This document shows, piece by piece, positions 24,701 to 25,260 of a DNA stretch of 64,000 bases. The notes under the pieces are model-generated. The model made no database searches. It saw only the letters and a program-made list of their open reading frames with translations, and was not told the origin of the DNA. Origin of the DNA: a plasmid. Where the stretch lies: NCBI RefSeq assembly GCF_988243305.1, contig NZ_OZ547137.1; one strand, given 5' to 3'. The position numbers were made by a program, and so were the translations under genes. Within the stretch, counting starts at the first letter, position 1. Every line of letters starts with the position of its first letter.

Positions 24701-24837
24701 TGGTGGGGACCATCTCATTAACCATGGAAGTTGAGATCCTCAGGGAAGCAGTGGAGTATGCGCAATCGCAAATGGATAATGTATGTGTCCTTGTTATCTT
24801 CGGACAAGGAATAGCCTCGGTAAGCCGTGTTTTGGGC
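24700..24837 (+). pseudogene. IS2-like orfA 3-prime end and orfB start, continuing after the IS110 insertion
   Basis: TMEVEILREAVEYAQSQ followed by MDNVCVLVIFGQGIASVSRVLG, matching the IS2 InsC end and InsD start pattern. Confidence 0.55.
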
Positions 24838-24879
24838 GATCGAGCAGGAGGCGGGATCATTCCCGCCGTCCTGAGCCTG

Positions 24880-25260
24880 TTTGTGCACAGAAAACCCCCA
24901 GCTAGGCTGGGGGTTCCGGAAAGCTTTCAGCTTTGAGGCCAGTTATTAAAACCCCTTTTGATTTGTTAAAACACCTTGCGGTCTGGCAACTGCAAGTGTC
25001 AAACAAGAAATCAAAAGGGGGTCCCAATGGGGAACGAAAAGAGCTTAGCGCACACACGATGGAACTGTAAATATCACATAGTTTTTGCGCCAAAATACCG
25101 AAGACAAGTGTTCTACAGAGAGAAGCGTAGAGCAACAGGCAGTATTTTGAGAAAGCTGTGTGAGTGGAAAAGTGTACAGATTCTGGAAGCTGAATACTGT
25201 GCAGATCATATCCATAACAACATTTACCATCATCGCGGATATGGCCAAAAAAGTGGCTGA
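24880..25260 (+). mobile_element. tnpA: IS200 fragment (left-end hairpin plus 3-prime-truncated tnpA)
   Basis: cccccagctaggctggggg hairpin, then MGNEKSLAHTRWNCKYHIVFAPKYRRQVFYREKRRA... (IS200 Y1 transposase) ending prematurely after ~78 aa. Confidence 0.85.

What the first reader, a model, noticed from the sequence alone, without database searches (positions are those of the whole stretch)
24830..24880. Second short intron-related fragment between the IS2-like orfB start and the IS200 fragment
gatcgagcaggaggcgggatcattcccgccgtcct is similar to the first ~35 nt of the fragment at 16232 (gatcgagtaggaggagggataactcccgccgtcct) but lacks the domain V part. The recurrence of this short motif at IS junctions is unexplained.
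Basis: seen in the sequence. Interest (0 to 1): 0.3.

Follow-up and report, generated by a model that had tools for sequence, protein, structure and literature searches.

The report
Dead stub of a group II intron
The 35-base motif is the last 34 bases of a known kind of mobile self-splicing intron that once jumped into an insertion sequence on this virulence plasmid and was then almost entirely deleted; it is an ordinary, non-functional relic.

Summary
The motif occurs at 24838-24872 and 16231-16265, 31 of 35 bases identical, with none expected by chance.

On the minus strand, 24872..24839 is the final 34 nt of a bacterial class C (IIC) group II intron of the E.c.I6 type: most of domain VI plus the 3' splice site (...CTCGAT).

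- **Conservation.** The canonical 34-mer is identical in 35 of 35 matches from several gammaproteobacterial genera. It is always preceded by domain V and followed by unrelated exon sequence.
- **Full-length relatives.** They carry RT/maturase genes closest to solved IIC intron RTs and sit just after intrinsic terminators.
- **This copy.** It abuts its 3' exon, the antisense strand of an ISEc48-like IS3-family element (24720-24838). It lacks domain V and the basal helix of domain VI, and its branch-point A is mutated to G.
- **5' side.** Eight to ten unexplained bases separate it from the left end of a truncated IS200C.
- **Sister fragment.** The fragment at 16232-16322 (domains V and VI) is an independent insertion of the same family, in the antisense strand of an IS629-like orfA.

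The motif recurs at IS junctions because these introns insert next to DNA hairpins, some of which lie inside IS elements, and later rearrangements spare the end that touches the 3' exon. This is a known phenomenon of low interest.

The parts
24839..24872 (-). Remnant of a class C (IIC) group II intron: domain VI upper helix, loop and 3' splice site. Sequence AGGACGGCGGGAATGATCCCGCCTCCTGCTCGAT. It lacks the basal GAG of domain VI and everything 5' of it.
   Evidence: 32/34 identical to the 3' end of introns L002, L003 and L012 and to the canonical 34-mer found 35 times in other genera. The fold shows a 7-bp GGCGGGA/UCCCGCC helix. The bulged branch A of intact copies is replaced by G and paired.
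24720..24838 (+). IS3-family (IS2 group, ISEc48-like) fragment spanning the orfA end and orfB start. Its antisense strand is the 3' exon of the lost intron.
   Evidence: 88-90% identity to ISEc48 and related IS3 elements. Homology stops at GGGCG, or GGGCGAT in the L011-type variant.
24873..24880 (.). Spacer of 8-10 nt, GAGCCTGT(TT), between the intron stub and the IS200C left end. Its origin is not established.
   Evidence: It matches neither domain V nor the expected 5' exon. There is only a weak 10/11 resemblance to the RT ORF of related introns.
24881..25215 (+). 5' part of IS200C: left end, 5' UTR structures and a truncated tnpA.
   Evidence: Homology to thousands of IS200C copies begins at window 24880/24881. 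Rfam STnc490 matches 24893-25017 at 140.5 bits. The tnpA pseudogene is annotated in an identical plasmid.
23379..24719 (-). IS110-family element (frameshifted transposase) inserted into the orfA of the same IS3-like element.
   Evidence: IS3-like homology is interrupted between about 23371/23378 and 24720. The IS110-family pseudogene is annotated in an identical plasmid. ORFs are listed.
16232..16322 (-). Sister fragment: the last 91 nt of the same intron family, comprising domain V, domain VI and 19 nt upstream.
   Evidence: RF00029 hit at 16232-16303, 47.2 bits. 92-96% identity to positions 1717-1807 and 1829-1919 of L002, L003 and L012.
16064..16231 (+). 5' part of an IS629-like orfA. Its antisense strand is the 3' exon of the sister fragment.
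   Evidence: The sequence reads MTKNTRFSPEV...HERD and then breaks into the intron complement. L003 carries the matching 5' junction in the same IS sequence.
25783..25835 (-). Unoccupied copy of the IS629-like insertion site used by the sister fragment (...CCGGTAT^CCCGCTC).
   Evidence: 52/53 match to the reconstructed site.
5217..7081 (-). A third, apparently full-length but more distant class C intron (67-80% identity to the E.c.I6 type). It has an intact 450-aa RT/maturase at 5313-6665 and lies directly after a terminator hairpin.
   Evidence: Rfam D1D4-3 (137 bits) and D1D4-1 hits. blastn. Ends read. ORF. Best PDB hit is GsI-IIC RT at 4e-140.

Best explanation
Window 24839-24872 (minus strand) is an inert relic of a mobile class C (IIC) group II intron of the E.c.I6 type.

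- **Shown.** It is homologous to the last 34 nt of that intron family (domain VI plus the 3' splice site). It directly abuts an IS3-family sequence on the 3'-exon side.
- **Inferred origin.** A full intron RNA reverse-spliced into the antisense strand of an ISEc48-like IS3 element and was copied into DNA. The insertion point lay about 10 nt after a DNA hairpin, at ...GAGTAT^CGCCC, with IBS1 GUAU pairing to the intron's AUAC loop. This is the usual class C mode of recognising a hairpin plus a very short exon pairing.
- **Inferred loss.** About 1.9 kb of the intron, with its 5' exon, was later removed in at least two steps: a deletion or rearrangement, then insertion of IS200C, which was itself truncated afterwards.
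- **Decay.** The stub then accumulated changes. The branch-point A became G, and the GNRA-like loop GUGA became AUGA.
- **Function.** It cannot splice or move, and no promoter or terminator consensus lies on it.

The motif recurs at IS junctions because two independent insertions of the same family hit hairpin-bearing sites inside IS elements (an IS629-like orfA and an IS3-like orfA/orfB junction). The extreme 3' end is the part physically attached to the surviving IS sequence.
For: - **Motif statistics.** Two copies in the window, none expected by chance.
- **Sister copy.** It is a bona fide domain V-VI match to RF00029.
- **E. coli distribution.** The motif matches at 33/35 in about 870 E. 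coli records. It lies about 250-280 nt downstream of RT genes on the same strand. Those loci give RF00029 and D1-D4 Rfam hits.
- **Alignment.** Homology ends exactly at ...CTCGAT, with divergent sequence beyond.
- **Other genera.** All 35 hits in a 100,044-species genome set carry the identical canonical 34-mer. They come from Rheinheimera, Alishewanella, Tolumonas, Cedecea, Vibrio metschnikovii, Photorhabdus and others. Each is preceded by domain V and followed by unrelated exons.
- **Class C traits.** 13 of 14 copies with a readable 5' exon sit after a hairpin plus T-run. The IEPs match GsI-IIC RT at 4e-140 and 3e-73, against about 1e-37 and 1e-16 for LtrA (IIA).
- **Named relative.** The L002 intron is 1807 nt long, as is E.c.I6 of CFT073, which is listed as class C (PMC3522654 supplement).
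- **Folds.** Intact copies show a bulged A 7 nt from the 3' end. It is replaced by a paired G in copy 2.
- **IS boundary.** The IS3-like homology ends at 24838/24840.
- **Target variant.** The L011-type IS variant has a 9-10 bp antisense hairpin followed by GCCTGAGTAT^C. The ISEc48-type variant has no hairpin.
- **IS629 site.** L003 carries the 5' junction and window copy 1 carries the 3' junction of the same IS629-like site. An empty site lies at 25783-25835.
- **IS200C boundary.** 24880/24881.
Against: - The 5' exon of copy 2 is gone, so the insertion site and the hairpin-plus-IBS1 fit are inferred from a related IS variant (L011), not observed.
- No complete intron occupies this IS3 site in 5426 complete E. 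coli genomes.
- The 8-10 nt between the stub and IS200C (GAGCCTGT..) match neither domain V nor the expected 5' exon. The order and nature of the truncating events are therefore unknown.
- RF00029 does not score the stub on its own, as expected for 34 nt without domain V.
Confidence: 0.9

Rival explanations
1. The stub was born short. Reverse transcription of the inserted intron RNA starts at its 3' end and aborted after about 34 nt, and the incomplete cDNA was joined to upstream DNA by repair. This is the 5'-truncated retrotransposition seen in LINE-like elements. No full-length intron would ever have existed at this site.
For: Both fragments in the window retain only the extreme 3' end, 34 nt and 91 nt. 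No full copy occupies this IS3 site in any complete E. coli genome. From general knowledge of group II intron mobility, 5'-truncated copies are a recognised by-product of target-primed reverse transcription.
Against: A 5'-truncated insertion should be joined to the 5' exon of the target. Here the stub is followed by GAGCCTGT and IS200C. Copy 1 is followed by an internal part of an IS66-family element, about 108 nt from that element's end. Neither matches the continuation of the host IS. Later rearrangement is therefore needed in either scenario.
Confidence: 0.2
2. The motif is a conserved part of an IS element, such as an IS3-family or IS200 end or an internal regulatory hairpin, rather than intron-derived.
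For: Both copies sit at IS junctions. The diverged orfB start of one IS3 variant, L009/L011 (GATACTCAGGCGGCAGTCCC), loosely resembles the motif and breaks from ISEc48 at the same nucleotide.
Against: Intact ISEc48, L010 and L011 elements do not contain the motif. IS200C homology starts 8-10 nt beyond it. The motif is the 3' terminus of RT-encoding introns in loci with no IS nearby, such as the grp and ter operons. In other genera it has arbitrary flanks.
Confidence: 0.02
3. The hairpin has been co-opted. On the + strand, the complement of domain VI is a GC-rich stem-loop 8-10 nt before the IS200C left end. It may have served as the terminator-like landmark that IS200C used for insertion, or it may now act as a transcriptional barrier.
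For: Four of four IS200C copies examined lie immediately after intrinsic terminator hairpins. The stub's hairpin is stable, at -21.5 kcal/mol with z = -4.2.
Against: There is no T-run after the hairpin, and no terminator-like or promoter-like site is called in 24500-25100. The spacer is longer than in the four genuine sites and differs in composition. Four sites is a small sample. IS200C carries its own left-end terminator hairpin, part of the STnc490 match.
Confidence: 0.08

Closest known systems
E.c.I6, a bacterial class C (IIC) group II intron of E. coli (CFT073/ED1a selC island; Leclercq & Cordaux 2012, PMC3522654)
   Same: The 3'-terminal 34 nt differ at two positions. The L002 intron that carries the canonical motif is 1807 nt long, the length listed for E.c.I6-1a, and has a disrupted ORF as described for E.c.I6. 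The paper lists E.c.I6 as class C. The same paper also lists truncated and internally deleted fragments, such as E.c.I6-tr1.
   Different: Only 34 nt survive, with a mutated branch point. The insertion site is the antisense strand of an IS3-family transposase gene rather than a terminator. I could not compare directly with the database entry for E.c.I6, so the name is assigned from length, class and context.
Class C introns that insert after intrinsic terminators or other DNA stem-loops (for example GsI-IIC, the Eubacterium rectale IIC intron, B.h.I1; mechanism from the literature and my own knowledge)
   Same: The IEPs of this family are closest to GsI-IIC RT and the E. rectale maturase. 13 of 14 full copies lie after a hairpin plus T-run. 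The domain V triad reads CGC, as seen directly in the sequence.
   Different: The two window fragments, and L003, lie at hairpins inside IS coding sequence with no T-run. These are terminator mimics rather than terminators.
E.c.I4 / S.f.I1, class A introns known to home into IS629, IS911 and other IS3-family transposase genes (PMC3522654, PMC3552965)
   Same: Both are group II introns embedded in IS3-family elements on E. coli and Shigella virulence plasmids, and both leave many fragments.
   Different: They belong to a different ORF class: A versus C. The intron here lies antisense to the transposase reading frame, at positions that appear to be chosen by a hairpin.

Membership tests
Group II intron (3' end, domains V-VI) | Match to the Rfam domain V-VI model RF00029 | tested here: not met
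   The stub at 24839-24872 gives no RF00029 hit even at E<=10, because domain V is absent. Its homologues do reach the gathering score: copy 1 at 47.2 bits, L002 at 50.4 and L003 at 48.5 bits. The stub is therefore filed as a fragment derived from such an intron, not as an intron.
Group II intron (3' end, domains V-VI) | Domain VI helix with a bulged branch-point adenosine 7-8 nt from the 3' splice site, and an intron ending in AY | tested here: not met
   Intact relatives fold with a bulged A at -7 and end in ..CGAU. In copy 2 the A is a G and is paired, and the basal helix is missing. The ending ..CGAU is retained. This fits a decayed derivative.
Group II intron (3' end, domains V-VI) | Sequence homology of the stub to the terminus of RT-encoding introns, ending exactly at the intron-exon boundary | tested here: met
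   32/34 identity to L002, L003 and L012 and to the 34-mer shared by 35 copies in other genera. Flanks diverge immediately after CTCGAT.
Bacterial class C (IIC) introns (parent family of the stub) | Intron-encoded protein of ORF class C, lacking an endonuclease domain | tested here: met
   The best solved relatives are IIC RTs. GsI-IIC scores 4e-140 (window intron) and 3e-73 (L003 fragment), and the E. rectale and R. intestinalis proteins come next. IIA and IIB proteins score far weaker. No formal phylogeny was made. E.c.I6 is listed as class C in PMC3522654.
Bacterial class C (IIC) introns (parent family of the stub) | Insertion a few nucleotides downstream of an intrinsic terminator or other DNA stem-loop | tested here: met
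   13 of 14 copies with readable 5' exons follow a GC-rich hairpin plus T-run. L003 follows a hairpin without a T-run. For copy 2 itself the 5' exon is lost, so this is inferred from the L011-type IS variant.
Bacterial class C (IIC) introns (parent family of the stub) | Short IBS1-EBS1 pairing, with EBS3 but no EBS2 | tested here: inconclusive
   5' exons end in GTAT (L012, L003, and the L011-type site) or TTAT (L002). A loop in domain I reads GAUAC. The more distant window intron has 5' exon UUAUG and loop CAUAA at the aligned position. This is suggestive covariation read by eye. Absence of EBS2 was not tested.
   The motif is absent from intact ISEc48, L010 and L011 elements and lies outside the IS200C homology.

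The most novel reading that the evidence does not exclude
E.c.I6-type class C introns, normally confined to sites after terminators, may repeatedly use terminator-like hairpins on the antisense strand of IS3-family transposase genes as alternative landing sites. The two sites seen here are an IS629-like orfA and the ISEc48-like orfA/orfB junction. This would let the introns hitch-hike on IS elements and plasmids. The hairpins they leave behind may in turn attract the single-strand transposon IS200C, which also lands after terminator hairpins.
Probability: 0.25. Interest if true: 0.3.

Novelty: already known. Interest (0 to 1): 0.1.

Why it matters
It matters little beyond annotation. The result explains a small unannotated gap between pseudogenes in the aggR region of enteroaggregative E. 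coli pAA plasmids. It shows that two separate insertions of one class C intron family contributed to the IS graveyard there. Short relics like this fall below the reach of covariance models and BLAST-based intron surveys, so intron insertion histories in IS-rich plasmids are probably under-counted. A minor point of interest is that a class C intron used hairpins inside IS coding sequence rather than true terminators.

Tried and rejected
1. **A second element at the same IS3 breakpoint.** In L009 the ISEc48-like sequence seemed to break at the very same nucleotide (GGGCGAT|ACTC...) into a hairpin-rich segment. I suspected a second, different intron at the same site. Rfam found no intron there. 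BLAST showed that segment to be an IS66-family end. Alignment with L011 showed the remainder to be a diverged orfB continuation of an IS3 variant. I rejected it as evidence of repeated homing. It did supply the probable uninterrupted target sequence.
2. **Origin of the spacer at 24873-24880.** Exact-word and one-mismatch searches in the window, the introns and the IS elements gave only an 8-mer (AACAGGCT in the RT ORF of L002 and L003) and a 10/11 match (AAGCAGGCTCAG in the window's third intron). I estimate the chance probability at a few percent, without correcting for the several words tried. The evidence is not convincing.
3. **A full intron at the IS3 site.** A chimeric query of the L011-type 5' exon joined to the intron 5' end found no record covering both halves. 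It did reveal L012, an intact family member.
4. **The stub as promoter or terminator.** Consensus scans found none.
5. **The ISEc48 fragment upstream of aggR as the missing 5' exon.** The fragment at 21563-21926 is 95% identical to ISEc48, against 89% for the fragment next to the stub, and it lies in the wrong order. It belongs to another copy.

Full report
**Setting.** The window is part of an enteroaggregative E. coli pAA-type virulence plasmid. The stretch 24300-25500 is 99.5-99.9% identical to about 26 complete plasmids that carry aggR just upstream. In RefSeq annotation the interval between an IS110-family pseudogene and an IS200 tnpA pseudogene carries no feature. The finding lies in that interval.

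**Observation.** The degenerate 35-nt pattern matches twice, at 16231-16265 and 24838-24872, both on the + strand. None was found in 100 shuffles. The copies share 31 of 35 bases. Copy 1 continues into a sequence that Rfam scores as group II intron domains V-VI: RF00029, 16232-16303 on the minus strand, 47.2 bits against a gathering score of 40. Copy 2 does not continue this way, and nothing intron-like scores in 24600-25100 even at E<=10.

**What the motif is.**
- A blastn search of complete E. coli genomes with the minus strand found the 35-mer at 33/35 identity in about 870 records.
- In the two loci inspected, it lies 250-280 nt downstream of reverse-transcriptase genes on the same strand.
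- Those loci give Rfam hits for group II domains I-IV and for domains V-VI, and the latter hit ends on the motif.
- An alignment of four copies shows that homology stops exactly after ...CTCGAT and that the downstream sequences are unrelated.
- A scan of one genome for each of 100,044 species found 35 matches. They come from Rheinheimera, Alishewanella, Tolumonas, Cedecea, Vibrio metschnikovii, Photorhabdus, Prodigiosinella and an Escherichia species.
- All 35 carry the identical 34-mer AGGACGGCGGGAGTGATCCCGCCTCCTACTCGAT. Each is preceded by domain V and GTGTGAG (one copy GTGTGAT). Each is followed by different exon sequence.
- The motif is therefore the 3' terminus of a mobile intron family, not part of any IS.

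**Structure.** Folding shows the textbook domain VI. It has a basal GAG/CUC helix, a bulged adenosine 7 nt from the 3' end, then AGGA/UCCU and GGCGGGA/UCCCGCC helices capped by GUGA.

**Intron class.**
- The window itself holds a third, more distant and apparently complete intron (7081..5217, minus strand) with an intact 450-aa protein.
- That protein, and the RT fragment of L003, match the solved group IIC intron RTs best. GsI-IIC scores 4e-140 and 3e-73, and the Eubacterium rectale and Roseburia proteins come next. They match the IIA protein LtrA and a IIB maturase far less well.
- Of 14 family members with a readable 5' exon, 13 lie a few nucleotides after a GC-rich hairpin and a T-run, that is, an intrinsic terminator.
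- The catalytic triad position of domain V reads CGC, as seen directly in the sequence.
- The L002 intron is 1807 nt with a broken ORF. This matches the length and state listed for E.c.I6, which Leclercq & Cordaux classify as class C. They also record truncated and internally deleted E.c.I6 fragments (PMC3522654 and its supplement).
- An intact member with a 462-aa IEP sits after the terminator of a ter-operon gene in strain M19.

**Anatomy around copy 2.**
- Left of the stub, 24720-24838 is 88-90% identical to ISEc48 and related IS3-family (IS2-group) elements. It covers the orfA end and the orfB start.
- Homology stops at GGGCG (24838), or at GGGCGAT if the element was of the variant seen in L011. 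The ambiguous AT is also the intron's last two bases.
- The same IS3-like orfA is split further left by an IS110-family element, at about 23379-24719.
- Right of the stub, homology to thousands of IS200C copies begins at 24880/24881. Rfam recognises the IS200 5' UTR (STnc490) at 24893-25017. The IS200C is itself cut at 25215 and joined to a fragment of a metal-transporter gene.
- The 8-10 nt between the stub and IS200C (GAGCCTGT..) match neither domain V nor the IS3 continuation.

**How it got there.**
- Inference: a full intron inserted into the antisense strand of the IS3-like element.
- The L011-type variant of that IS offers a good class C target on its antisense strand. It has a 9-10 bp hairpin followed by GCCTGAGTAT^CGCCC. 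The ISEc48-type variant has no hairpin and ends in GACA.
- Other family members have 5' exons ending in GGTAT, GGGTAT or GTTAT. A domain I loop reads GAUAC.
- The sister fragment supports this picture. Copy 1 abuts the antisense strand of an IS629-like orfA (...GAT|CCCGCTCATG).
- The chromosomal intron L003 has the complementary 5' junction in the same IS sequence (...CACCGCCTCCGGTAT|GTGCG), preceded by a 6-8 bp hairpin.
- An unoccupied copy of that site lies at 25783-25835 in the window.
- The two fragments are thus independent insertions of one family into different IS elements.
- Each differs from the invariant canonical 34-mer by two private substitutions. Copy 2 has loop G to A and branch-point A to G. 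Copy 1 has loop G to U and a stem G to U that breaks a pair. Neither variant occurs in the 100,044-species set. This is what decay of dead copies would give.

**How it was truncated.** This remains uncertain.
- A simple IS200C insertion into an intact intron would leave domain V sequence next to the stub.
- A simple abortive reverse transcription would leave the IS3 5' exon there.
- Neither is seen. Copy 1 likewise is joined to an internal point of an IS66-family element rather than to an IS terminus.
- At least two events are therefore needed. I favour full insertion followed by deletion and IS200C insertion, but 5'-truncated retrotransposition followed by rearrangement is not excluded.

**Function.** None is expected. 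Domain V and the branch adenosine are gone, and no promoter-like or terminator-like site overlaps the stub.

**False lead.** An apparently identical IS3 breakpoint in L009 turned out to be a diverged IS3 variant followed by an IS66 end, not a second intron.

**Verdict.** The open question of why the motif recurs at IS junctions is answered by known biology of class C group II introns and by IS-driven erosion. Group II intron fragments in IS-rich E. coli and Shigella plasmids are well documented (PMC3522654). Interest is low.

Noticed in passing
window 5217-7081 (minus strand): An apparently complete class C group II intron, 67-80% identical to the E.c.I6 type. It has an intact 450-aa RT/maturase (5313-6665). 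It starts GTGTG directly after a terminator hairpin (AAAGCCCGTGGGGGCTTTTTTATG) and ends ...ATCCCGAT. It may still be mobile. RF00029 did not reach its gathering score at the intron's 3' end.
   Followed up: partly
L004-L007 (IS200C copies next to yfeX, rplL, guaA, wzzB); window 24873-24881: In four of four chromosomal IS200C copies examined, the left end lies immediately after an intrinsic terminator (hairpin plus T-run) of the upstream gene. In the window, the IS200C left end lies 8-10 nt after the hairpin formed by the complement of the intron stub. This may reflect shared targeting of terminator-like hairpins by IS200C and class C introns.
   Followed up: partly
window 25783-25835 (minus strand), inside the IS629-like orfA at 25686-25961: An unoccupied copy (52/53 match) of the IS629-like site into which the sister intron fragment at 16232 inserted.
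   Followed up: yes
window 16323-16430: The intron fragment at 16232-16322 is joined on its 5' side to the last ~108 nt of an IS66-family element: the TnpC C-terminus (..ELLPWN..) and a terminal repeat ending ...GGGGCGCTTAC. The junction is at an internal point of that IS, so a deletion or recombination made it rather than a clean insertion.
   Followed up: no
window 19900-19952, 21563-21926, 23181-23378, 24720-24838: Fragments of at least two different ISEc48-like elements (about 95-100% and about 89% identical to ISEc48) bracket aggR (22064-22897). One is internally deleted. The other is split by an IS110-family element and fused to an IS1 insA start (ORF 22998-23402).
   Followed up: partly
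L003 (E. coli W5-6 chromosome) 2108-4034, and about 870 other E. coli records: A widespread chromosomal E.c.I6-like intron with a broken RT gene. Its 5' exon is antisense IS629-like orfA, but its 3' exon is an IS110-family pseudogene. The two flanks do not come from one target, which suggests recombination between intron copies or a later rearrangement.
   Followed up: no
window 24893-25017 and 25916-26014: Rfam hits to STnc490 (the IS200 5' UTR RNA, 140.5 bits) and to the ALIL pseudoknot (the IS3-family frameshift element, 81 bits) in the IS629-like element. Both are ordinary parts of their IS elements.
   Followed up: no
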